From Escherichia coli (GTDB taxonomy: Bacteria; Pseudomonadota; Gammaproteobacteria; Enterobacterales; Enterobacteriaceae), in NCBI RefSeq assembly GCF_030384885.1, contig NZ_CP128613.1: a stretch of DNA of 64,000 nucleotides, one strand, 5' to 3'. The notes below the pieces were generated by a model. It searched no databases. It was not told the DNA's origin and worked only from the letters and a program-made list of their open reading frames with translations. Both the position numbers and the translations under genes were made by a program. Position 1 is the stretch's first letter. Each line of letters starts with the position of its first letter. Shown in pieces: positions 290 through 47,531 of this stretch.

Positions 290-440
290 AACTTTGCCTC
301 AGGCATTAGAAATAGCGCGTTATTGTACACGGATTAATCGCACTACAAAACAGGATCACAAACATCCTCCGCAAACAAGTATTGCAGAGTCCCTTTGTGA
401 TCGCTTTCACGGAGCATAAAAAGGGTTATCCAAAGGTCAT

Positions 441-523
441 TGCACCAATATGGTGCTTAATGTTTCCATTGAAGCACTATATTGGTGCAACATTCACATC
501 ATGGTGCAGCCCTTTTGCACGAT
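441..523. promoter_or_regulatory. NtrC (NRI) enhancer-like binding sites upstream of glnA
   Basis: TGCACCAATATGGTGCT at 441-457 and GCACTATATTGGTGCAA at 473-489 fit the dyad TGCACCA-N3-TGGTGCA; a weaker copy lies at about 501-523. Position upstream of the glnA sigma-54 promoter matches the known architecture. Confidence 0.7.
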
Positions 524-7305: not shown

Positions 7306-7549
7306 AGAAAAAAGGCGACAGATTACTCTGTCGCCTTTTTTCCTGACTCATAACCCTTAACGGGTCTTACAATCCTTGCAGGCCGCCAACACACCCTGTT
7401 TTTCCATTAGCCGGAACAATCCGTGTTGATTCCATTTCCGTTTAATTACGTCTCCGGACGTTTGTCTTCCTGACAATCCTCTGTCTTCGCCTCCTGGCGC
7501 TCCTGACCCTCATCCTGAGTCATTGTTCCTGTTAGCGTCCTCGCTCTAT
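7306..7549 (-). ncRNA. csrC: CsrC small RNA (CsrA-sequestering)
   Basis: Minus-strand sequence begins ATAGAGCGAGGACGCTAACAGGAACAATGACTCAGGATGAGGGTCAGGAGCGCCAGGAGG and carries many GGA/AGGA motifs; ends in a hairpin (AGGCGACAG / CTGTCGCCT, 7313-7336) plus U-run. Lies in the yihI-engB intergenic region. Confidence 0.8.
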
Positions 7550-14493: not shown

Positions 14494-14522
14494 TAAAAAA
14501 AGCCCGTGAATATTCACGGGCT
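14494..14522 (-). terminator. rho-independent terminator downstream of dsbA
   Basis: Stem AGCCCGTGAA / TTCACGGGCT followed on the minus strand by a U-run (A-run 14494-14500 on +). Confidence 0.65.
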
Positions 14523-14541
14523 TTATGTAATTTACATTGAA

Positions 14542-16517: not shown

Positions 16518-16586
16518 AGTAATGCTCCTTACTCTTGAGACAGACACGTTAGCAGGGTCAATCCCACAATAAAAGAGGCGATATCG

Positions 16587-17168
16587 GTGAATCTGATGAC
16601 GACGATAACAGGCGTTGTGCTGGCGGGCGGTAAAGCCAGACGAATGGGCGGCGTAGATAAAGGATTGCTTGAATTAAACGGCAAACCATTATGGCAACAT
16701 GTCGCTGACGCGCTTATGACGCAGCTCTCTCACGTCGTGGTTAATGCTAATCGTCATCAGGAAATCTATCAGGCAAGCGGTCTGAAAGTGATTGAAGATA
16801 CACTGGCGGATTACCCAGGCCCTCTGGCAGGAATGCTTTCAGTAATGCAGCAGGAAGCGGGGGAGTGGTTTTTGTTTTGCCCATGCGATACGCCTTACAT
16901 TCCCCCTGATTTAGCTGCCCGGCTTAATCATCAGCGCAAAGATGCGCCTGTCGTGTGGGTCCACGACGGTGAACGCGATCACCCGACTATTGCTCTGGTA
17001 AACCGCGCAATTGAGCCTTTATTACTGGAATATCTGCAAGCAGGAGAACGCCGGGTAATGGCATTTATGCGTCTGGCTGGCGGTCATGCGGTTGATTTCA
17101 GCGATCATAAAGAGGCATTTGTGAACGTGAATACGCCAGAGGAGCTTGCCCGATGGCAAGAAAAGTAA
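16587..17168 (+). CDS. mobA: molybdenum cofactor guanylyltransferase MobA
   Basis: ORF with [11 protein letters not shown] nucleotide-binding motif; apparent GTG initiation at 16587. Confidence 0.93.
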
Positions 17169-40901: not shown

Positions 40902-41019
40902 AACGCCTCCAGCCTCATTACTTACCCGCACAAAATAGAATTGTGCTGTACAAACGTCCAGTTTGAAAGAAGTTTCCTGCGAGGCGCTACGCAAAACGAT
41001 CCTTAATTTTTATTATTTT

Positions 41020-41055
41020 ATCCCACAATATGAGACGTAGTTTATATTGTGGGAT
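41020..41055. promoter_or_regulatory. perfect inverted repeat, candidate operator upstream of the IclR-family gene
   Basis: ATCCCACAATAT (41020-41031), 12-bp spacer, ATATTGTGGGAT (41044-41055); about 60 bp upstream of the regulator start in the rmuC-divergent intergenic region. Confidence 0.4.
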
Positions 41056-41116
41056 ATATCACCTTTTCCCCACGTCATTATGTGGAACACTTCAGCAATA
41101 TCATCAGGAGAAACGT

Positions 41117-41884
41117 ATGGCAGATACCTCTTCAACCACCGCTGGCGCACAAACGTTATTACGCGGGCTGGCGGTTCTTAATGCTGTTTATAACGGCTGC
41201 CATGACCTGAAAAGTATCGGCGAGTTCACCGGCACGACCCGGAGCACAACCCATCGTTTAGTCACCGTTCTGGTGGAACAACGCTACCTGCGCCACGTCC
41301 CAACGCAGGGCTACCAACTGGGCGCCAAACTGATCGAATTCGGTGCCAGAGCGCTGGAAAGCACCTCGCTGTACGAAATTGCGCTGCCCGTTTTGCAGCG
41401 TCTGGCCCGTTACACCCTGGACACCGTGCATCTGGGGATCGTTGAAGGCGACGAAGTGCTGTATCTGGAGAAGATCAACAGTCAGCGTGGGCTGGAAATG
41501 CGCTCACGCCCAGGCCATCGCATGCCACTGGCAATCACCGGCATCGGCAAGGCATTGATCCTCAACCGAACAGAAGAAGAGTGGCGCACGCTGTTTAAGA
41601 CCTGTGGTGATGAAACAAAACTGGGCACATTTATTCAGAACATGCGTCGTTATGCCGCCAGTGGTTTTGCTTTTGATCTGGAAGAGAACGAGCCGACTAT
41701 CCGTTGCGTTGCAGCGCCGGTTTACAACGCCCGGGATGAAATTGTGGCGGCTATTTCTGTCGCCAGTACCACTACGTATATGTCACTGGCGCGTCTGGAA
41801 GAACTGGCACCTTACGTCAAATCCTGTGCAGAAGAGATATCCGCTGAACTGGGCTGGGGTAAGCACGTCCGCAAAAATAAATAA
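41117..41884 (+). CDS. IclR-family transcriptional regulator
   Basis: 255-aa ORF from MADTSS with SD AGGAGA; N-terminal wHTH (LRGLAVLNAV...IGEFTGTTRSTTHRLVTVLVEQRYL) and C-terminal IclR effector domain pattern. Confidence 0.85.
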   Translation: MADTSSTTAGAQTLLRGLAVLNAVYNGCHDLKSIGEFTGTTRSTTHRLVTVLVEQRYLRHVPTQGYQLGAKLIEFGARALESTSLYEIALPVLQRLARYTLDTVHLGIVEGDEVLYLEKINSQRGLEMRSRPGHRMPLAITGIGKALILNRTEEEWRTLFKTCGDETKLGTFIQNMRRYAASGFAFDLEENEPTIRCVAAPVYNARDEIVAAISVASTTTYMSLARLEELAPYVKSCAEEISAELGWGKHVRKNK

Positions 41885-41907: not shown

Positions 41908-42912
41908 ATGTCGGGAAACACCTCATTTATTGCCCTGGACTGGGGAACGTCATCGCTTCGGGCATGGCGTTTTGGCGACTCACCAAATCCACAAGAAAAA
42001 CGTGAATTCCCGTGGGGGATCATGAAATTACCCTCCCAGGCAGCAACACGTGAGGACGCTTTCCACGATACGTTTTTACGTGTCTGCGGCGACTGGCTGG
42101 CACAATCCCCATGCCCGATTCTGGCTTGCGGCATGATCGGCAGTGCGCAAGGGTGGCAACCCGCAGCTTATTTACCTTGCCCGGTCACTCTCGAGGGTCT
42201 GGCAAAGCAGTTGACGCCTGTTATCTACCAGCAGCAGACAATGCTGCACATCATTCCCGGCGTGATTAAAGAAGGTGAAATGCCCGAAGTGATGCGTGGC
42301 GAAGAGACACAAATCTTCGGTGCTATCTCGATGGAACCGGCCCTGCAAAACGCGCTCCGCCAGGGTATGCCTGTGCTGATTGGCTTACCTGGCACACATG
42401 CGAAATGGGCGGTAGTTGAAAACAACACCATTACCGATTTTCGAACCTTTATGACAGGCGAGTTATTTGATGTTTTATCCCGCCATTCGATTCTCGGTGC
42501 CACCATGCGTTCGGGAGATGAACCGCACTGGGATGCCTTCGCCCACGGGCTGACAGCGGCACAAGAGCATCATCAGACCGGATTATTATCGACGCTGTTT
42601 TCGACCCGTTCGCGCCTGCTGACCAGTAATCTTACGCCGTCCTCACAGGGGGATTACCTTTCAGGATTACTGATAGGCCATGAATTATGCGGTCTGGCAT
42701 CCAGTTTGCTACGTGATTTACCCGCCACAACACCGATCGCCTTAATCGGTAGCGCCACTCTGAACAGCCGCTATTCACAAGCATTCAGCCACGTTTTTCC
42801 CGACAGACAGCTACACGCCATTCCTAATGCCACTGAACAGGGGTTATGGCGAATCGCCCACGCTGCCGGGCTACTCTCCACCAACGCCAGGGAATGTACT
42901 CATGCCATTTAA
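41908..42912 (+). CDS. 2-dehydro-3-deoxygalactonokinase-like sugar-acid kinase (DgoK family)
   Basis: 334-aa ORF sharing the motifs I recall from DgoK: ALDWGTSSLRAW, MRGEETQ, PGTHAKW, FRTFMTGELF. Confidence 0.85.
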   Translation: MSGNTSFIALDWGTSSLRAWRFGDSPNPQEKREFPWGIMKLPSQAATREDAFHDTFLRVCGDWLAQSPCPILACGMIGSAQGWQPAAYLPCPVTLEGLAKQLTPVIYQQQTMLHIIPGVIKEGEMPEVMRGEETQIFGAISMEPALQNALRQGMPVLIGLPGTHAKWAVVENNTITDFRTFMTGELFDVLSRHSILGATMRSGDEPHWDAFAHGLTAAQEHHQTGLLSTLFSTRSRLLTSNLTPSSQGDYLSGLLIGHELCGLASSLLRDLPATTPIALIGSATLNSRYSQAFSHVFPDRQLHAIPNATEQGLWRIAHAAGLLSTNARECTHAI

Positions 42913-43531
42913 TACGCTTTTGCAAAAAACCGGGTTAGTCGCCATTTTACGCGGCGTGAAACCGGATGAGATTGTCGCCATCGGTGAAAAGCTGTATGCC
43001 GCTGGATTTCGCCTGATTGAGATTCCCATGAACTCGCCGGAGCCGTTGCAAAGTATCAGTTTACTGCGCGACGCCCTGCCTAAGGACTGCCTGGTCGGAG
43101 CCGGAACGGTGCTTTCGGTGGAGCAAGTCGTCGCGGTTAAAGAGGCTGGAGGCCAGATTATCGTAATGCCGCATTGCGATACTGCGGTGATCCGTCGTGC
43201 CCGTGCGCTGGGTATGTATTGTGCGCCTGGCGTCGCTACGCCCACCGAAGCTTTTGCTGCCATTGAACATGGCGCCAATGCCATCAAGCTGTTCCCGGCT
43301 GAACAAATTACGCCTGAAGTCACCAAAGCCTGGCGTGCGGTTATTCCACAATCCGTTCCGATGTTACCGGTTGGCGGTATCACTCCAGACACAATGGCGC
43401 GTTATCTGAGCCACGGCGCAAACGGCTTTGGCCTCGGTTCTGCGCTATATCGCCCCGGCATGACGCCAGAGCAAGTCTATGAAAATGCAGTACTGTTTAT
43501 GAACGCATGGAACAATTTAAATAGCAAATAA
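42902..43531 (+). CDS. 2-dehydro-3-deoxy-6-phosphogalactonate / KDPG-type aldolase (DgoA/Eda family)
   Basis: About 209-aa ORF from MPFNTLLQKTGLVAILRG; class I aldolase TIM-barrel pattern (EIPMNSP, GAGTV, KLFPA, GGIT). Start overlaps the kinase 3' end by 11 bp. Confidence 0.85.
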   Translation: MPFNTLLQKTGLVAILRGVKPDEIVAIGEKLYAAGFRLIEIPMNSPEPLQSISLLRDALPKDCLVGAGTVLSVEQVVAVKEAGGQIIVMPHCDTAVIRRARALGMYCAPGVATPTEAFAAIEHGANAIKLFPAEQITPEVTKAWRAVIPQSVPMLPVGGITPDTMARYLSHGANGFGLGSALYRPGMTPEQVYENAVLFMNAWNNLNSK

Positions 43532-43555: not shown

Positions 43556-44530
43556 ATGATAAAACATCTTACCTTACCGAAAAAAATGGCTGCAATGGTA
43601 CTTCTTGCCGGCGCTGCCCTCAGCACTGCGCCTGTGCAGGCGGCCTCCTGGCCAACCAAACAGATCGAGTTAGTCGTACCCTACGCGGCCGGAGGCGGTA
43701 CGGATCTGGTTGCCCGTGCCTTTGCTGATGCCGCCAAAAACCATTTGCCCGTCAGCATCGGGGTTATCAATAAACCTGGCGGTGGCGGCGCTATCGGCCT
43801 GAGTGAAATCGCCGCTGCCCGCCCTAACGGTTACAAAATGGGTTTAGGCACGGTTGAACTGACCACCCTTCCCAGTCTCGGAATGGTGCGTTTTAAAACC
43901 AGCGACTTTAAACCCATTGCCCGTCTGAATGCGGATCCTGCGGCTATCACCGTCCGTGCCGATGCACCGTGGAATAGCTATGAAGAATTTATGACTTACG
44001 CCAAAGCGAATCCCGGAAAAGTACGCATTGGTAACTCAGGCACCGGAGCAATCTGGCATCTGGCGGCAGCTGCACTGGAAGACAAAACGGGCGTGAAGTT
44101 TTCTCATGTCCCATATGACGGCGCAGCCCCTGCCATTACAGGCCTGTTAGGCGGGCATATTGAAGCGGTTTCCGTAAGCCCAGGTGAAGTTATCAATCAT
44201 GTGAAAGGCGGCAAGCTGAAGACACTGGTAGTGATGGCGGATGAACGTATGAAAACCATGCCTGACGTCCCGACGTTAAAAGAGAAAGGCGTTGATCTCT
44301 CCATCGGCACCTGGCGCGGCCTGATTGTGTCGCAAAAAACGCCGCAGGATGTGGTTGATGTTCTGGCTAAGGCCGCAAAAGAGACGGCTGAAGAGCCTGC
44401 ATTCCAGGATGCTCTGCAAAAGTTGAATCTCAACTATGCATGGCTTGATGGTGCCAGCTTCCAGACCCAAATCAACGAACAGGAAAAGTACTTTGACGAG
44501 TTACTAACTCGGCTGGGCTTGAAAAAATAA
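43556..44530 (+). CDS. tripartite tricarboxylate transporter substrate-binding protein (TctC/Bug family)
   Basis: 324-aa ORF with signal peptide (MIKHLTLPKKMAAMVLLAGAALSTAPVQA) and the TctC-type motifs ...VVPYAAGGGTD..., ...NKPGGGGAIG.... Confidence 0.85.
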   Translation: MIKHLTLPKKMAAMVLLAGAALSTAPVQAASWPTKQIELVVPYAAGGGTDLVARAFADAAKNHLPVSIGVINKPGGGGAIGLSEIAAARPNGYKMGLGTVELTTLPSLGMVRFKTSDFKPIARLNADPAAITVRADAPWNSYEEFMTYAKANPGKVRIGNSGTGAIWHLAAAALEDKTGVKFSHVPYDGAAPAITGLLGGHIEAVSVSPGEVINHVKGGKLKTLVVMADERMKTMPDVPTLKEKGVDLSIGTWRGLIVSQKTPQDVVDVLAKAAKETAEEPAFQDALQKLNLNYAWLDGASFQTQINEQEKYFDELLTRLGLKK

Positions 44531-44546
44531 TCCCGAGGTACGGTCG

Positions 44547-45053
44547 ATGAACACAAAACAGTCTGTTGCTCAACTCGCCGTACCGCACCGCAAGCGCTTT
44601 TCATCCACTGTGGTGGTGGCGCTGTTACTTTGTGTGGTTGCTGGCGCGGTGATAATTAATGCCGCTGATTTTCCAGCAACTGCCATTGAAACGGATCCCG
44701 GTGCAAGTGCCTTCCCTACTTTCTATGCCTGCGCTCTGATTGTGCTCGCTGTCTTACTGGTGATACGCGATCTTTTGCTGGCAAAACCAGTCCCTTGCGC
44801 CAACGCACAGGAAAAACCGGCATTCAGGAAAACGGCAACGGGAATTGCGGCAACCGCGTTTTATATTGTGGCGATGAGCTACTGCGGTTATCTCATTACT
44901 ACTCCTGTTTTCCTCATCGTCATTATGACGTTGATGGGCTACAGGCGATGGGTACTCACACCGGGTATTGCGCTGCTGTTAACGGCAATCCTCTGGTTGC
45001 TGTTTGTCGAAGCGTTACAGGTGCCATTGCCTGTCGGCACATTTTTCGAATAA
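44547..45053 (+). CDS. tripartite tricarboxylate transporter small membrane subunit (TctB-like)
   Basis: 168-aa hydrophobic protein with about 4 TM segments, positioned between tctC-like and tctA-like genes. Confidence 0.75.
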   Translation: MNTKQSVAQLAVPHRKRFSSTVVVALLLCVVAGAVIINAADFPATAIETDPGASAFPTFYACALIVLAVLLVIRDLLLAKPVPCANAQEKPAFRKTATGIAATAFYIVAMSYCGYLITTPVFLIVIMTLMGYRRWVLTPGIALLLTAILWLLFVEALQVPLPVGTFFE

Positions 45054-45065
45054 CAGGGGCCTGCA

Positions 45066-46556
45066 ATGTTTGAAAGTGAACTTTTAACTCAGGGGTTTTC
45101 GACATTACTCAGTAATCCTCAGGCGCTGCTGTTTGCCACGTTTGGAGTGATACTGGGTATTATGATTGGCGCTCTGCCTGGCCTGACAGCGACCATGGGT
45201 GTGGCGATTTTGCTGCCTTTCACCTACGGCATGGAGCCTGTTTCTGGCTTGTTGATGATTTGCGGTGTCTTTTTTGGTGGTGTGTATGGTGGTTCTATCA
45301 CCGCAATTTTGCTCAAAATTCCCGGTACGCCTGCCGCCGCTGCCACCGCCATTGACGGTTATGAGTTAACGAAGCAGGGAAAAGCCGGGCTGGCATTAAG
45401 TGCCGCCACGTTCTCTTCTTTTAGCGGTGGAACGCTCAGCATTATCGTATTGATGTTTCTCTCTCCGGTACTTGCCAGTTGGGCGTTGAAATTTAGTGCC
45501 TCGGAGTCCTTCGCCCTGGCAACCTTCGGACTAAGTATTATTGCCAGTATTTCCGGTGAGTCACTGATTAAAGGGCTGATTGCCGGGGTTGGCGGATTAC
45601 TGATCGCAACGATAGGCCTCGATCCGATGGGCGGTTTTCCACGCTTTACGGGCGGGTTTGTGGAACTGATGAATGTGCCATTTATCCCGGTGATGATTGG
45701 TCTGTTTGCTGCTTCAGAAGCGTTCCGTTCTATGGAACAAAATCAGCATATTCGTCAGAGCGCGAACGTGGCTATCGGCAGTCTGTTACTGCCCTGGCAA
45801 ACGCTACGCCGCATCGCATTAACCATTTTGCGCTCATCAGGATTAGGGGTTTTTATCGGCATGATCCCCGGTGCGGGGGCAGATATTGCAGCTTTTGTTG
45901 CCTATAACGAAACTCGTCGTTTCAGTAAGACGCCTGAAAACTTTGGTAAGGGTGAGATTAAGGCGGTGGCCTCCTGTGAGGCAGGCGCGAATGGCTGCAC
46001 CGGTGGCGCATTGTTACCTATGCTGACGTTGGGGATCCCAGGCGATGCGGTAACTGCCATCATGCTGGGCGCGTTAACGTTACAAGGGATGCAGCCAGGC
46101 CCACTGATGTTTACCGACCACGGCGATATGGTTTATACGCTGTTTGTCGGCATGATCTTTTGTTACTTCATGCTGCTAGTTCTTGGACTGCTCTCTTTGA
46201 AAGTCATCGGTAACGTGGTGAAGATCCCCGGCAATATTCTCACGCCGATGATCCTCGCACTTTGTGTGGTCGGGACTTATGCGTTGAACAATAGCCTGTT
46301 TGATGTTGGCATTATGCTGATTGCAGGCGTGGTGGGCTATTTCATGCAAAAAGGGGGGTATCCGGCATCACCCGTAGTGCTGGCATTGATTATGGGGCCA
46401 ATGGCGGAAAGTAATTTTCGCCGTGCGCTGTCGCTTTCTGGTGGGTCACTCGACTTTCTGTATACCCGACCGATAACCCTGGCATTGCTGACACTGGCAG
46501 CCTTTACGCTACTGACGCCAATAATACGCAAAATTATGCGCTTACGGCGTCAGTAA
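45066..46556 (+). CDS. tripartite tricarboxylate transporter large permease (TctA family)
   Basis: 496-aa polytopic membrane protein with Gly-rich TM segments typical of TctA (GALPGLTATMGVAILLPFTYGM, GGSITAILLKIPGTPAAAAT). Confidence 0.9.
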   Translation: MFESELLTQGFSTLLSNPQALLFATFGVILGIMIGALPGLTATMGVAILLPFTYGMEPVSGLLMICGVFFGGVYGGSITAILLKIPGTPAAAATAIDGYELTKQGKAGLALSAATFSSFSGGTLSIIVLMFLSPVLASWALKFSASESFALATFGLSIIASISGESLIKGLIAGVGGLLIATIGLDPMGGFPRFTGGFVELMNVPFIPVMIGLFAASEAFRSMEQNQHIRQSANVAIGSLLLPWQTLRRIALTILRSSGLGVFIGMIPGAGADIAAFVAYNETRRFSKTPENFGKGEIKAVASCEAGANGCTGGALLPMLTLGIPGDAVTAIMLGALTLQGMQPGPLMFTDHGDMVYTLFVGMIFCYFMLLVLGLLSLKVIGNVVKIPGNILTPMILALCVVGTYALNNSLFDVGIMLIAGVVGYFMQKGGYPASPVVLALIMGPMAESNFRRALSLSGGSLDFLYTRPITLALLTLAAFTLLTPIIRKIMRLRRQ

Positions 46557-46589
46557 TTGATATCGCTCCCCGACGTTGGGGAGTATGAG

Positions 46590-46740
46590 ACTGATGACAA
46601 ACGCTAAATTGCCTGATGCGCTGCGCTTATCAGGCCTACCACAGAAATGCAATATATTGAATTTGCATGCTTTTGTAGGCCGGGTAAGGCGATCACGCCG
46701 CATCCGGCATGAACAAAGCACACGTTAACAACAATCGGAA
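46590..46740. repeat. REP/BIME palindromic repeat cluster
   Basis: GCCTGATGCGCTGCGCTTATCAGGCCTAC, TGTAGGCCGGGTAAGGCGATCACGCCGCATCCGGC units between the transporter gene and udp. Confidence 0.55.
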
Positions 46741-46766
46741 TGCTCCCCTAAGCCAGGGAGCTTTTT

Positions 46767-47531
46767 TTATTTCAGCAGACGACGCGCCGCTTCCACCACG
46801 ATTTTCACCGCCTGGCTTTCGGTTTGTTTCATCGTCTCAGCATTCGGGATCTCTTGTTGGGTACGATTGACGATAACGCCCGCCACCATACCGGCACGAA
46901 GGCCCTGGCTTGCACACATGGTCAGCAGGGTTGCAGATTCCATTTCATAGTTCATTACGCCCATCGCCTGCCACTCTTCCATAGAACCTTTAAAGTGACG
47001 GACTACGCGACCAGAGTAAGTATCGTAACGTTCCTGACCCGGGTAGAAGGTATCAGAAGAAGCCGTCACACCAACGTGAGTGGTGGCACCAATTGACTTC
47101 GCCGCTTCAACCAGCGCGGTCGTACATTCGAAATCTGCGACAGCCGGGAACTCCAGCGGAGCGAAGTGCAGGCTCGCGCCATCCAGACGAACAGACGCCG
47201 TGGTCACCAGCACATCGCCGACATTGATATGCGGCTGGATAGCGCCCGTTGTACCGATACGCAGGAAGGTGCGAATGCCCAGCTGTGCCAGCTCTTCAAC
47301 CGCAATAGAGGTAGACGGGCCGCCGATACCGGTAGAGCAGACGATAACAGGTTTACCATCCAGCTCTGCACGCCAGGTGGTGAATTCGCGGTGAGATGCC
47401 AGCTTAACCGGCTTATCCATCAGCGCGGCGATCTTTTCCACACGATCCGGGTCGCCAGGGACGATGGCAAGCGTAGCCCCTTGTAAATCGTTTTTAGTGA
47501 GGCCGAGATGAAAAACATCAGACTTGGACAT
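46767..47531 (-). CDS. udp: uridine phosphorylase
   Basis: 253-aa ORF from [19 protein letters not shown]; PNP/UDP phosphorylase family. Confidence 0.96.

What the first reader, a model, noticed from the sequence alone, without database searches (positions are those of the whole stretch)
41020..41055. Perfect 12-bp inverted repeat in the rmuC-divergent promoter region, candidate operator of the IclR-family regulator
ATCCCACAATAT-N12-ATATTGTGGGAT is a perfect palindrome arm pair, about 60 bp upstream of the regulator start. Perfect 12-bp arms are unlikely by chance and the location fits autoregulation or control of the downstream cluster. The wide 12-bp spacer would put half-sites on roughly the same helix face two turns apart, compatible with a dimer or tetramer binder.
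Basis: seen in the sequence. Interest (0 to 1): 0.45.

Follow-up and report, generated by a model that had tools for sequence, protein, structure and literature searches.

The report
Operator of an accessory sugar-acid operon
The palindrome is real and is almost certainly the DNA site where the neighbouring IclR-type regulator binds to control an accessory E. coli sugar-acid operon; this is a well-supported but ordinary kind of bacterial gene switch.

Summary
The repeat has perfect 13-nt arms (41019-41031 / 41044-41056) with 12 nt between them. About 0.03 such repeats are expected per window.

The window is E. coli. The repeat lies 22 bp inside a 5.8-kb accessory island (IclR regulator, dgoK-like, dgoA-like, tctCBA) between rmuC and udp. 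The island is present in 1456 of 5426 complete genomes.

The repeat is best read as two tandem 17-bp IclR "group 1" boxes:
- Box 1: ATCCCAC-AAT-ATGAGAC, 41020-41036.
- Box 2: AGTTTAT-ATT-GTGGGAT, 41039-41055.

Their centres are 19 bp apart, which is the published arrangement for tetramer-binding IclR regulators.

The same element precedes the orthologous regulator-dgoK-dgoA unit in 5 other enterobacterial loci and in 74 of 75 Burkholderiaceae loci. Matrices built only from foreign sites rank it first in the 64-kb window.

In Burkholderiaceae the right arm supplies a -35-like hexamer, so a repressor is likely. In Escherichia the right arm also overlaps a conserved CRP-like site (41048-41063).

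No binding data exist, the E. coli promoter is not mapped and the effector is unknown. It is a new member of a known kind, of modest interest.

The parts
41019..41031 (.). Left arm of the perfect inverted repeat (TATCCCACAATAT). It is the outer half-site of box 1.
   Evidence: It is the best hit in the whole window to an arm matrix trained only on Burkholderiaceae sites: 15.6 bits, next best 10.4.
41044..41056 (.). Right arm of the inverted repeat (ATATTGTGGGATA). It is the outer half-site of box 2.
   Evidence: It is invariant in the six E. coli strains compared (five strains plus the window); Escherichia sp. E1V33 differs at its last two bases (GGGACG for GGGATA).
41020..41036 (.). Box 1: a 17-bp IclR group 1 box, ATCCCAC-AAT-ATGAGAC, centred at 41028 (-89 from the ATG).
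   Evidence: It matches GKTYCRY-W3-RYGRAMC at 14 of 17 positions (consensus from PMC8222616). It ranks 1 of 63,984 positions (20.3 bits) with a matrix built from the published AZC_2273-group sites, and 0 of 300 shuffles reach that score.
41039..41055 (.). Box 2: a 17-bp IclR group 1 box, AGTTTAT-ATT-GTGGGAT, centred at 41047 (-70 from the ATG), 19 bp from the centre of box 1.
   Evidence: It matches the consensus at 13 of 17 positions and ranks 3 of 63,984 (12.5 bits). The tandem score is 32.7 against a maximum of 21.7 in 300 shuffles. The equivalent second box is present in L006, L089, L090, L008 and L009.
41035..41038 (.). Variable centre of the dyad: the last bases of box 1, the 2-nt linker and the adjoining position.
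   Evidence: Six alleles occur among nine Escherichia sequences (ACGTA, ATGGA, ATGAA, ACTGA, ACAGA, AT-GG), while the flanking ATGAGA and GTTTATATTGTGGGA are constant.
41048..41063 (.). CRP-like site TGTGG-GATATA-TCACC. It overlaps the right arm.
   Evidence: It matches TGTGA-N6-TCACA at 8 of 10 positions. TGTGC-N6-TCACC, with variable N6, is conserved just after box 2 in L089, L090, L008 and L009. Escherichia lacks 9 bp there, so box 2's TGTGG supplies the left half. TGTG-N7-TCAC occurs only 4 times in the window. CRP binding is inferred.
41076..41081 (+). Candidate -10 hexamer CATTAT (unconfirmed).
   Evidence: Read from the sequence. L089 has CATTAA at the equivalent place. The consensus scan found no promoter on the + strand.
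41086..41091 (+). Alternative weak -10 (AACACT), at the position expected for a class II CRP promoter with CRP at about -41.5 (unconfirmed).
   Evidence: At +30 to +36 from the centre of the CRP-like site, L009 has CAGAAT, L090 has CAAAAT and L089 has AATACT (counted by hand). Inference only.
41072..41088 (.). Possible weak third box, ACGTCATTATGTGGAAC, over the core-promoter region.
   Evidence: 9.5 bits, rank 7 in the window, which is within the chance range. It is poorly conserved in Escherichia sp. E1V33. Speculative.
40997..41116 (+). Island-specific part of the rmuC/regulator intergenic region. It holds the whole control region of the island operon.
   Evidence: Similarity to island-free genomes, including K-12, stops at 40996.
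41117..41884 (+). IclR-family regulator (255 aa), first gene of the island operon.
   Evidence: Pfam HTH_IclR and IclR_C. RefSeq calls it 'IclR family transcriptional regulator'. It reaches no NCBIfam equivalog cut-off.
41908..42912 (+). 2-keto-3-deoxygalactonate kinase homologue (dgoK-like).
   Evidence: Pfam DGOK, E = 1.4e-89. It is syntenic with the regulator in all relatives examined.
42902..43531 (+). 2-keto-3-deoxy-6-phosphogalactonate aldolase homologue (dgoA-like).
   Evidence: Pfam Aldolase. NCBIfam NF006600 scores 322.9 bits against a cut-off of 207.
43556..46556 (+). tctC, tctB and tctA: a tripartite tricarboxylate-type transporter, the last genes of the operon.
   Evidence: Pfam TctC, TctB and TctA. 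Gene gaps are 12-24 bp or overlaps, so there is no room for an internal promoter region of the usual size.

Best explanation
The inverted repeat is the operator of the adjacent, uncharacterised IclR-family regulator. It consists of two tandem 17-bp IclR group 1 boxes, box 1 at 41020-41036 and box 2 at 41039-41055, with centres 19 bp apart. The weaker inner half-sites and a 2-nt linker fill the 'spacer'.

A tetramer (dimer of dimers) of the regulator most likely occupies both boxes. It would then repress the single promoter of the six-gene island operon (regulator, dgoK-like, dgoA-like, tctCBA), which includes the regulator's own gene. Repression would work by covering the promoter-proximal upstream region and, in Escherichia, the left half of a CRP-like activator site (41048-41063). 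A pathway metabolite would release the regulator. The likeliest effector is a 2-keto-3-deoxy sugar acid such as 2-keto-3-deoxygalactonate, or galactonate.

Shown: the sequence, its non-random nature, its conservation together with the regulator, and its fit to the family motif and spacing. Inferred: binding by this regulator, its oligomeric state, the sign of regulation, the effector, the CRP involvement and the promoter position.
For: 1. The repeat is real and non-random.
2. It occurs once per genome and only in the 1456 genomes that carry the island.
3. Phylogenetic footprint in enterics. In five other enterobacterial loci (L006, L089, L090, L008, L009; regulators 95-67% identical) the two best box hits in each 5.8-8.8-kb locus are a tandem pair upstream of the regulator. 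They are 19 or 20 bp apart and sit at similar distances from the start codon.
4. Phylogenetic footprint in Burkholderiaceae. In 74 of 75 loci (regulator about 55% identical, same regulator-dgoK-dgoA order) there is exactly one site per locus. Its geometry is invariant: TCCCAwTATnTGA-N9-TCAnATATTGGAG.
5. A matrix trained only on Burkholderiaceae left arms gives its best window hit at 41021. The best palindromic pair is also there, at 23.2 bits, and 0 of 200 shuffles reach it.
6. A matrix built only from published alphaproteobacterial sites of the AZC_2273 group ranks box 1 first and box 2 third of 63,984 positions. The tandem score is 32.7 against a shuffle maximum of 21.7.
7. The boxes fit the IclR group 1 consensus. 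The 19-bp spacing lies in the 18-22 nt range reported for 94 orthologous groups and attributed to tetramer binding (PMC8222616).
8. The recognition-helix residues S43, T44, H46, R47 and L48 are invariant in all 19 aligned orthologues.
9. Within Escherichia, substitutions cluster in the linker.
10. In Burkholderiaceae the right arm ends in TTGGAG, followed 17 nt later by a highly conserved TACAAT. This is a good sigma-70-type promoter whose -35 lies inside the operator, which argues for repression.
Against: - There are no binding, expression or transcription-start data for this locus. Nothing was found in the searchable literature.
- The E. coli promoter could not be placed. The consensus scan finds none on the + strand, and three -10 candidates remain.
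- The two-arm Burkholderiaceae matrix does not score the E. coli site as significant (0.1 bits), because the right arms differ.
- Escherichia has 19-bp box spacing where most relatives have 20.
- Box 1's inner half and box 2's inner half are weak.
- In Burkholderiaceae the division into 17-bp boxes is ambiguous, 20 or 22 bp.
- Some IclR proteins are activators, so the sign of regulation is not settled.
- The regulator's own orthologous group was not found in the held part of the published motif tables. The match is therefore to a sister motif, not to a published motif for this protein.
Confidence: 0.82

Rival explanations
1. The site is the regulator's binding site, but the regulator acts as an activator (as MhpR, PobR and PcaU do). 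It would bind upstream of the CRP site and core promoter and recruit RNA polymerase when its effector is present.
For: - If the promoter is a class II CRP promoter with a start near 41098, the boxes are centred near -70 and -51. That is upstream of the core promoter, a position typical of activators (geometry).
- No good -35 or -10 is detectable in E. coli, as in activator-dependent promoters.
- IclR-family members can be activators or repressors (family background cited in PMC8222616).
Against: - In Burkholderiaceae the operator includes the -35-like TTGGAG of a promoter with a near-consensus TACAAT at 17-nt spacing. Such a promoter looks self-sufficient and in need of repression.
- In Escherichia box 2 shares 5 bp with the CRP-like site. 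This favours competition over cooperation.
- From general knowledge, IclR-type regulators of sugar-acid pathways (KdgR, YiaJ, IclR, AllR) are repressors.
Confidence: 0.13
2. The repeat works as a nucleic-acid hairpin or cruciform, not as a protein-binding site. It could be a terminator or insulator between rmuC and the island, or an RNA stem-loop in a leader.
For: The single strand folds into a 13-bp stem at -10.5 kcal/mol, z = -6.4 against shuffles.
Against: - The stem is A+T-rich, the loop is 12 nt and there is no T-run. The true terminators in the window are G+C-rich with flanking A/T runs.
- No transcript is expected to end here, because rmuC and the regulator gene diverge from it.
- In 62 distinct Burkholderiaceae sites the sequence is conserved but pairing is not. 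Outer positions 4/38 and 5/37 are complementary in 2% and 0% of sites. Positions 9/33 and 13/29 pair in 40% and 32%.
- In other enterics each box is a palindrome of its own, so the long-range pairing disappears.
- There is no Rfam match near any threshold.
Confidence: 0.02
3. The repeat is a relic of how the island arrived: a recombination or attachment site, or the terminal repeat of a mobile element. This is suggested by its position only 22 bp inside the island's left edge.
For: It is close to the junction at 40996/40997. The island is present in some genomes and absent in others.
Against: - There is one copy per genome and no copy at the island's right end.
- The island has no integrase or transposase.
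- The same element accompanies the regulator in unrelated genomic contexts, in Phytobacter and in Burkholderiaceae.
Confidence: 0.01
4. The site is bound mainly by another protein, for example CRP alone or a nucleoid protein attracted by A+T-rich DNA. Its linkage to the IclR gene would then be incidental.
For: A CRP-like site overlaps the right arm. The region is A+T-rich.
Against: - The CRP-like element is a separate conserved block outside the boxes in four other enterics. It does not explain box 1 or the left arm.
- The boxes fit the IclR family consensus and a published IclR-group matrix.
- The element follows the regulator into Burkholderiaceae.
Confidence: 0.02

Closest known systems
IclR-family group 1 tandem operators, as catalogued by Suvorova & Gelfand 2021 (PMC8222616). 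The closest is the AZC_2273 orthologous group of alphaproteobacteria: ATCCCAyATwnTGGGAT pairs 20 nt apart.
   Same: - 17-bp boxes of the form GKTYCRY-W3-RYGRAMC.
- Two boxes, one strong and one weaker, 18-22 nt centre to centre, upstream of the regulator and of sugar-acid genes.
- AZC_2272's gTCCCAcAaTATGGGAT and Cseg_2741's gTtCCAcAaTATGaGAg are near-identical to box 1.
   Different: - The E. coli regulator's HTH (…TRSTTHRL…) was not found in the held part of their tables, so membership of that orthologous group is unproven.
- Spacing is 19 bp here, against 20 bp there.
- The regulated genes differ: dgoK, dgoA and a TTT transporter here; an SDR, an enolase-superfamily enzyme and an MFS transporter there.
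- Their sites are also predictions, not footprints.
The RL0918/Acry_2240 'kdgR/dgoR' IclR group (same paper), and the IclR-type 'GalR' predicted next to dgoK and a TTT transporter in Salinivirga fredricksonii (Leyn et al. 2017, PMC5507952).
   Same: An IclR regulator is linked to dgoK-type genes of the De Ley-Doudoroff pathway. The sites are tandem and 20 nt apart (GTTcCATTATtTGGAAC + aTTTgAcTATATGGAAt). In Salinivirga the same combination of dgoK, IclR regulator and TTT transporter occurs.
   Different: The recognition helix differs (PRGTLHRQL against TRSTTHRLV) and the half-site differs (GTTCCA against ATCCCA). This is a separate orthologous group.
TtgV of Pseudomonas putida, the structural paradigm for a tetrameric IclR-family repressor on a long operator (Lu et al. 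2010, as cited in PMC8222616).
   Same: A long (about 40 bp) operator, bound cooperatively by two dimers of one tetramer and overlapping promoter elements. This matches the 36-38-bp element here (for the citation; structural details are from memory).
   Different: It is an efflux-pump regulator with an unrelated operator sequence. No structure or stoichiometry is known for the E. coli protein.
DgoR and the dgoRKADT operon of E. coli K-12.
   Same: It controls a kinase and an aldolase of the same enzyme families for galactonate catabolism (general knowledge).
   Different: DgoR belongs to the GntR family, whereas the island regulator belongs to the IclR family. The island also lacks a dehydratase and an MFS transporter and carries a TTT transporter instead. 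It is an independent regulatory solution, not an orthologue.
XynR (YagI) and YjhI, E. coli IclR-type regulators of the D-xylonate operons.
   Same: They are IclR-type regulators of accessory sugar-acid operons, and their natural effector is a 2-keto-3-deoxy sugar acid (title of PMC13279387; text seen).
   Different: The authors state that their binding sequences are uncharacterised, so no operator comparison is possible. The pathway is also different.

Membership tests
IclR-family group 1 operator (tandem type) | A 17-bp palindromic box matching GKTYCRY-W3-4-RYGRAMC. | tested here: met
   Box 1 matches at 14 of 17 positions and box 2 at 13 of 17 (hand count against the consensus). With the published-site matrix, box 1 ranks 1 and box 2 ranks 3 of 63,984 positions.
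IclR-family group 1 operator (tandem type) | A second box with its centre 18-22 nt from the first. | tested here: met
   The centres are at 41028 and 41047, 19 bp apart. The best tandem score in the window is at this offset, and 0 of 300 shuffles reach it.
IclR-family group 1 operator (tandem type) | Located upstream of an IclR-family gene or its target operon, with most site centres 20-80 nt (tailing to 300 nt) before the start codon. | tested here: met
   The centres are at -89 and -70 from the ATG of an HTH_IclR/IclR_C protein.
IclR-family group 1 operator (tandem type) | Conserved at orthologous loci (phylogenetic footprint). | tested here: met
   Found in five other enterobacterial loci and in 74 of 75 Burkholderiaceae loci.
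IclR-family group 1 operator (tandem type) | Physically bound by the cognate regulator, with binding modulated by an effector. | not testable with these tools
   This needs EMSA, footprinting or ChIP.
AZC_2273 orthologous group (Suvorova & Gelfand 2021) | The regulator is an orthologue of AZC_2273. | not tested
The HTH string of the E. coli protein is absent from the held, truncated supplement.
Intrinsic (Rho-independent) terminator | A G+C-rich stem with a short loop, followed by a T-run at the end of a transcription unit. | tested here: not met
   The stem is A+T-rich, the loop is 12 nt and there is no T-run. The terminator scan does not report it. The flanking genes diverge from it.
Dispersed repeat (REP, MITE or IS end) | Several copies per genome, or paired copies at the ends of an element. 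| tested here: not met
   There is one place per genome in 1456 genomes, and no second copy in the window.
CRP (cAMP receptor protein) site (for the 41048-41063 element only) | TGTGA-N6-TCACA with conserved GTG/CAC cores and a free N6. | tested here: met
   TGTGG-GATATA-TCACC matches at 8 of 10 positions. The cores are conserved and N6 varies across six enterobacterial sequences. The core pattern occurs only 4 times in the window.
CRP (cAMP receptor protein) site (for the 41048-41063 element only) | Bound by CRP-cAMP at an activating distance from a mapped transcription start. | not testable with these tools
   No transcription start is known. A start near 41098 would put CRP at about -41.5, but that is inference.
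DgoR (GntR-family) control of dgo genes | The regulator belongs to the GntR family. | tested here: not met
   Pfam finds HTH_IclR and IclR_C, not GntR.

The most novel reading that the evidence does not exclude
In Escherichia a 9-bp deletion, about one helical turn, has fused the outer half-site of the second IclR box with the downstream CRP site. The five bases TGTGG (41048-41052) would then belong both to the repressor's operator and to the activator's site. This would make a compact switch in which the pathway-specific repressor and CRP compete directly for the same DNA. It would also explain why the right arm is invariant among the E. coli strains compared. The same lineage has 19-bp rather than 20-bp box spacing, which may tune repressor affinity.
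Probability: 0.3. Interest if true: 0.45.

Novelty: new member of a known kind. Interest (0 to 1): 0.3.

Why it matters
The island is carried by about a quarter of complete E. coli genomes, including extraintestinal pathogenic lineages such as JJ1887 (ST131 from memory), clone D i2 and ExPEC XM. No study of it turned up in the literature searched. A defined operator, a likely CRP site and a one-promoter operon model turn an anonymous 'IclR family regulator' into a testable unit. One can ask which sugar acid it senses. Candidates are 2-keto-3-deoxygalactonate or galactonate taken up by a TTT transporter, a rare transporter type in E. coli. The conserved regulator/operator pair, shared from Burkholderiaceae to Enterobacterales, could also be reused as a sensor module. 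Nothing here challenges current understanding of IclR regulators.

Tried and rejected
- A two-arm matrix trained on Burkholderiaceae sites (left plus right arm, spacer 7-11) did not single out the E. coli site: 0.1 bits, within the shuffle range. The Burkholderiaceae right arm is shaped by its -35 role. A symmetric test using the left-arm matrix on both strands was used instead.
- The first attempt to collect sites with a fixed 13-nt gap found nothing because the gap was miscounted. This was corrected.
- The promoter scan found no + strand promoter. Hand inspection left three -10 candidates, and none could be chosen.
- A CRP reading of the spacer (TGAGA-N6-TTATA) was considered and dropped as too weak. 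The better CRP-like element lies at 41048-41063.
- Rfam searches of the E. coli intergenic region and of a Burkholderiaceae leader gave only chance-level matches.
- Literature searches for the island, its protein accessions, or an IclR-type dgo regulator in E. coli or Burkholderia found nothing specific.
- The second-best single box in the window (16561-16577, upstream of the ORF at 16587-17168, which I take to be mobA) scores 13.1 bits. That is within the chance range (shuffle mean maximum 13.7), and it has no tandem partner.
- Loci where the regulator follows tctA (L010, L091, L092) have no boxes upstream of the regulator. The start of those operons lay outside the DNA fetched, so they were not informative.
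- Splitting the Burkholderiaceae element into 17-bp boxes gave an ambiguous register of 20 or 22 bp.
Full report
**1. The observation**

The window at 41020-41055 reads ATCCCACAATAT GAGACGTAGTTT ATATTGTGGGAT. The repeat finder extends each arm by one base: 41019-41031 and 41044-41056, 13 nt, fully complementary, 12 nt apart. No other copy of the arm occurs in the window; the nearest is a 1-mismatch match at 16561.

Perfect inverted repeats with arms of at least 13 nt and a spacer of at most 30 nt occur at three places in the window. First-order Markov simulations of the window give a mean of 0.03. The other two, at 7307-7342 and 14499-14524, are G+C-rich hairpins flanked by A and T runs, which makes them ordinary bidirectional terminators. 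The repeat under study is A+T-rich, has a 12-nt loop and has no T-run. It is therefore real, non-random and of a different kind.

**2. Where it sits**

The window is E. coli, 100% identical to strain 2013C-4282. The repeat lies between rmuC (minus strand) and a 255-aa protein with HTH_IclR and IclR_C domains, at 41117-41884.

Five more genes follow the regulator, separated by gaps of 12-24 bp or by overlaps:
- a DGOK-family kinase;
- a 2-dehydro-3-deoxy-6-phosphogalactonate aldolase (NCBIfam NF006600, above its cut-off);
- tctC, tctB and tctA.

These six genes form an accessory island between rmuC and udp. 1456 of 5426 complete E. coli genomes have it.

Similarity to island-free genomes such as K-12 ends at 40996, at the foot of a hairpin shared by all strains. 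The repeat therefore starts 22 bp inside the island. The only sizeable non-coding stretch available for a promoter of the island genes is 40997-41116.

A 51-bp probe covering the repeat finds one place per genome, and only in those 1456 genomes. It is not a dispersed repeat. The island contains no integrase or transposase, and there is no copy of the arms at its right end, which instead carries REP-like sequences and a terminator.

**3. Related loci**

A scan of one genome per species with an alignment of the regulator and its relatives returned 80 loci. Two more enterobacterial loci were added from contig look-ups.

Gene order:
- Regulator-dgoK-dgoA is kept in Burkholderia, Paraburkholderia, Caballeronia and Trinickia. 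Those regulators are about 55% identical.
- The full six-gene set is seen in Phytobacter massiliensis and Klebsiella spallanzanii. The loci of Pseudocitrobacter cyperus and an unnamed enteric (L089) show the first four genes before the fetched DNA ends.
- In three of these (K. spallanzanii, P. cyperus, L089) the cluster lies next to rmuC.
- Escherichia sp. E1V33 has regulator-dgoK-dgoA without the transporter.

In 74 of 75 Burkholderiaceae loci there is exactly one element of the form TCCCAwTATnTGA-N9-TCAnATATTGGAG per 5-9-kb locus. The remaining locus has only 126 bp of upstream DNA. The element always lies upstream of the regulator and always has the same internal spacing. It is followed, 17 nt after TTGGAG, by a strongly conserved CCTACAAT (information profile). 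This reads as a -35-like hexamer inside the right arm, a 17-nt spacer and a near-consensus -10.

Two matrix tests compare these sites with the window:
- A matrix made only from the Burkholderiaceae left arms gives its best hit in the whole window, on either strand, at 41021 (15.6 bits; next best 10.4). The best inverted pair is also there, at 23.2 bits, and 0 of 200 shuffles reach it; the shuffle maximum is 16.3.
- The stricter two-arm matrix fails on the E. coli site, because the right arms differ.

Across the 62 distinct Burkholderiaceae sites the core positions are invariant. Several symmetric positions are conserved in sequence without being complementary: 0-2% at the outermost two pairs, and 32-40% at two inner pairs. 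This is the signature of protein recognition, not of a hairpin.

**4. What the repeat is made of**

Suvorova and Gelfand (2021, PMC8222616) catalogued IclR-family motifs.
- The main type is a 17-bp palindrome, GKTYCRY-W3-4-RYGRAMC.
- In 94 orthologous groups two such sites sit 18-22 nt apart, centre to centre. The authors relate this to tetramer binding.

Read this way, the E. coli element is box 1, ATCCCAC-AAT-ATGAGAC (41020-41036, 14 of 17 matches), then a 2-nt linker, then box 2, AGTTTAT-ATT-GTGGGAT (41039-41055, 13 of 17 matches). The centres are 19 bp apart. The '12-nt spacer' holds the weak inner halves and the linker.

Their supplementary tables list sites for an alphaproteobacterial group named after AZC_2273. 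These are close to the E. coli boxes, for example gTCCCAcAaTATGGGAT and gTtCCAcAaTATGaGAg, and they occur in pairs 20 nt apart. I built a matrix from 14 of those published sites and scanned the window:
- Box 1 ranks first of 63,984 positions (20.3 bits), and no shuffle out of 300 reaches it.
- Box 2 ranks third (12.5 bits).
- The best tandem score in the window is this pair at a 19-bp offset, 32.7 bits against a shuffle maximum of 21.7.

The same matrix picks, as the top two hits in each of five other enterobacterial loci, a tandem pair upstream of the regulator:

| Locus | Box 1 | Box 2 | Spacing (bp) |
|---|---|---|---|
| L089 (unnamed enteric) | ATCCCACATATAGGGAT | AGTTTATATTATGGGAT | 19 |
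| L090 (Pseudocitrobacter) | TTCCCACATATCGGGAT | ATCTTATTTGTTGGGAT | 20 |
| L008 (Phytobacter) | TTCCCACATATTGGGAT | GTTTTATATTATGGTAT | 20 |
| L009 (K. spallanzanii) | ATCCCATATATAGGGAT | ATCTTATAAATAGGGAA | 20 |
| L006 (Escherichia sp. E1V33) | as E. coli | as E. coli, last base C | 19 |

In these relatives box 1 is a palindrome in its own right, and the long-range 12-N12-12 symmetry is absent. This confirms the two-box reading. In Burkholderiaceae the register of the boxes is ambiguous, 20 or 22 bp.

Within Escherichia, six alleles occur at 41035-41038 among nine sequences, while the flanks are constant. Single substitutions in the left arm are tolerated in some lineages.

The recognition-helix residues S43, T44, H46, R47 and L48 are invariant in 19 orthologues from E. 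coli to Burkholderiaceae. This fits a shared DNA target.

**5. A second conserved element**

Immediately after box 2, four enterobacterial lineages carry TGTGC-N6-TCACC with a free N6 (ATTATA, GCTGTA, GCAACG, AGTAAA). This is the pattern of a CRP site.

Escherichia lacks 9 bp at that point. As a result, box 2's TGTGG, then GATATA, then TCACC form the equivalent site at 41048-41063 (alignment). In E1V33 the N6 differs (GACGCA) and the cores are kept.

The core pattern TGTG-N7-TCAC occurs four times in the window. One other occurrence lies about 130 bp upstream of udp and another near the glnA end of the window; from memory, CRP sites are known in both regions. I therefore regard the element as a probable CRP site that overlaps the right arm. 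This is an inference.

**6. How it probably works**

The most economical model is a tetramer of the island's IclR regulator bound to boxes 1 and 2. It would repress the single promoter of the six-gene operon, its own gene included, until a pathway metabolite releases it.

Reasons to favour repression:
- In Burkholderiaceae the operator contains the -35 of what looks like a strong promoter.
- In Escherichia the operator shares 5 bp with the CRP-like site. In the other enterics it abuts that site, where the polymerase alpha subunit would contact DNA in a class II promoter (inference).
- Characterised sugar-acid regulators of this family are mostly repressors (general knowledge).

An activator role cannot be excluded. 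I give it about one chance in eight.

The effector is unknown. By analogy with XynR and YjhI, E. coli IclR-type regulators that respond to 2-keto-3-deoxy-D-xylonate (PMC13279387), a 2-keto-3-deoxy acid is the best guess. The gene content points the same way: a kinase and an aldolase for 2-keto-3-deoxygalactonate, but no dehydratase. Leyn et al. (PMC5507952) predicted galactonate uptake for a similar cluster of dgoK, an IclR regulator and a TTT transporter.

The E. coli promoter is not resolved. The scan finds nothing on the + strand. Three -10 candidates remain:
- CATTAT at 41076-41081;
- AACACT at 41086-41091, which would put CRP at about -41.5;
- TATATT at 41043-41048, inside box 2.

In all three cases a protein on the boxes would interfere with initiation.

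**7. Rivals**

- Hairpin or terminator. The fold is stable, but the composition, the context, the lack of maintained pairing in relatives and the absence of any Rfam match argue against it.
- Integration relic or mobile-element end. This is excluded by single copy, the lack of a partner at the other end and conservation in unrelated contexts.
- Another binding protein. CRP explains only the right edge.

**8. Comparison with known systems, and novelty**

The element meets every sequence-level criterion of a tandem IclR group 1 operator. Binding could not be tested.

The regulator reaches no NCBIfam equivalog cut-off; BhcR, KdgR and PcaR are the nearest models and all score far below threshold. 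Its nearest solved relative is the Thermotoga IclR protein 1mkm. Its HTH was not found in the held part of the published motif tables, and no paper on the island was found. It is thus an undescribed member of a well-described kind.

The only mildly unusual features are the 19-bp spacing and the apparent fusion of box 2 with the CRP site in Escherichia.

**9. Verdict**

- Observation: confirmed.
- Interpretation: supported, with refined geometry.
- Novelty: new member of a known kind.
- Interest: modest, 0.3.

Noticed in passing
window 41048-41063; L089, L090, L008, L009 just after box 2: There is a conserved CRP-like site (TGTGC-N6-TCACC) downstream of the operator in enterics. Escherichia has a 9-bp deletion that makes box 2's TGTGG serve as its left half.
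   Followed up: partly
window 40946-40961: CTGTACAAACGTCCAG lies in the ancestral rmuC upstream region and is shared with K-12. It resembles a LexA box (CTGT-N8-ACAG, one mismatch). From memory, yigN/rmuC has been listed among LexA-regulated genes.
   Followed up: no
window 40975-40996 (minus strand): A terminator-like hairpin is shared by all E. coli and marks the left edge of the island. In K-12 it follows a separate udp terminator. Island strains replace 43 bp of K-12 sequence with the 5.8-kb island.
   Followed up: partly
window 46556-46770: The right junction of the island carries two REP-like palindromic units (about 46612-46640 and 46676-46712). It also carries a terminator hairpin with a T-run (46744-46770) just before the end of udp, which is one codon longer than in K-12.
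   Followed up: no
L006 (Escherichia sp. E1V33): This Escherichia lineage has regulator-dgoK-dgoA between rmuC and udp but no tctCBA transporter genes. The operator is intact.
   Followed up: partly
L010, L091, L092 (Citrobacter amalonaticus, Serratia odorifera, an unnamed enteric): In these loci the orthologous regulator lies downstream of tctCBA instead of leading the operon. No boxes are found in front of it. The operon start lay outside the DNA fetched.
   Followed up: partly
Burkholderiaceae loci, e.g. L081 3600-3810 and L017 3660-3830: A 200-450-nt leader separates the operator and promoter from the regulator gene. It contains a GGAGAC ribosome-binding site followed by a short ORF. That ORF ends in ...GPLSGPAL in several Paraburkholderia but has a different sequence in the B. 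cepacia complex. Rfam finds nothing there.
   Followed up: partly
window 440-491: TTGCACCAATAT...ATATTGGTGCAA is a perfect 12-nt inverted repeat 27 nt apart. From memory, it looks like the pair of NtrC (TGCACCA-N3-TGGTGCA-type) sites upstream of glnA. A TGTGATCGCTTTCAC CRP-like site lies at 396-410.
   Followed up: no
window 7307-7342 and 14499-14524: These are the two other perfect long inverted repeats in the window. Both are G+C-rich stems flanked by A and T runs, i.e. bidirectional intrinsic terminators.
   Followed up: partly
window 16561-16577: ATCCCACAATAAAAGAG is the second-best single IclR-type box in the window (13.1 bits). It lies 10 bp upstream of the ORF at 16587-17168, which I take to be mobA. 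It has no tandem partner and its score is within the chance range.
   Followed up: partly
window 41066-41088: TTCCCCAC-N8-GTGGAAC is an imperfect inverted repeat resembling the box half-sites, lying over the candidate -10. It ranks 7 with the box matrix but is not conserved in E1V33. It could be a weak auxiliary site.
   Followed up: partly
E. coli genome searches: In one genome the regulator and operator region also has a second copy on a plasmid.
   Followed up: no
L088 (E. coli HS-02): This strain has 1-nt deletions in the left arm (ATCCAC) and in the linker, and a change in the CRP-like right half (TCACT). The control region may be decaying there.
   Followed up: no
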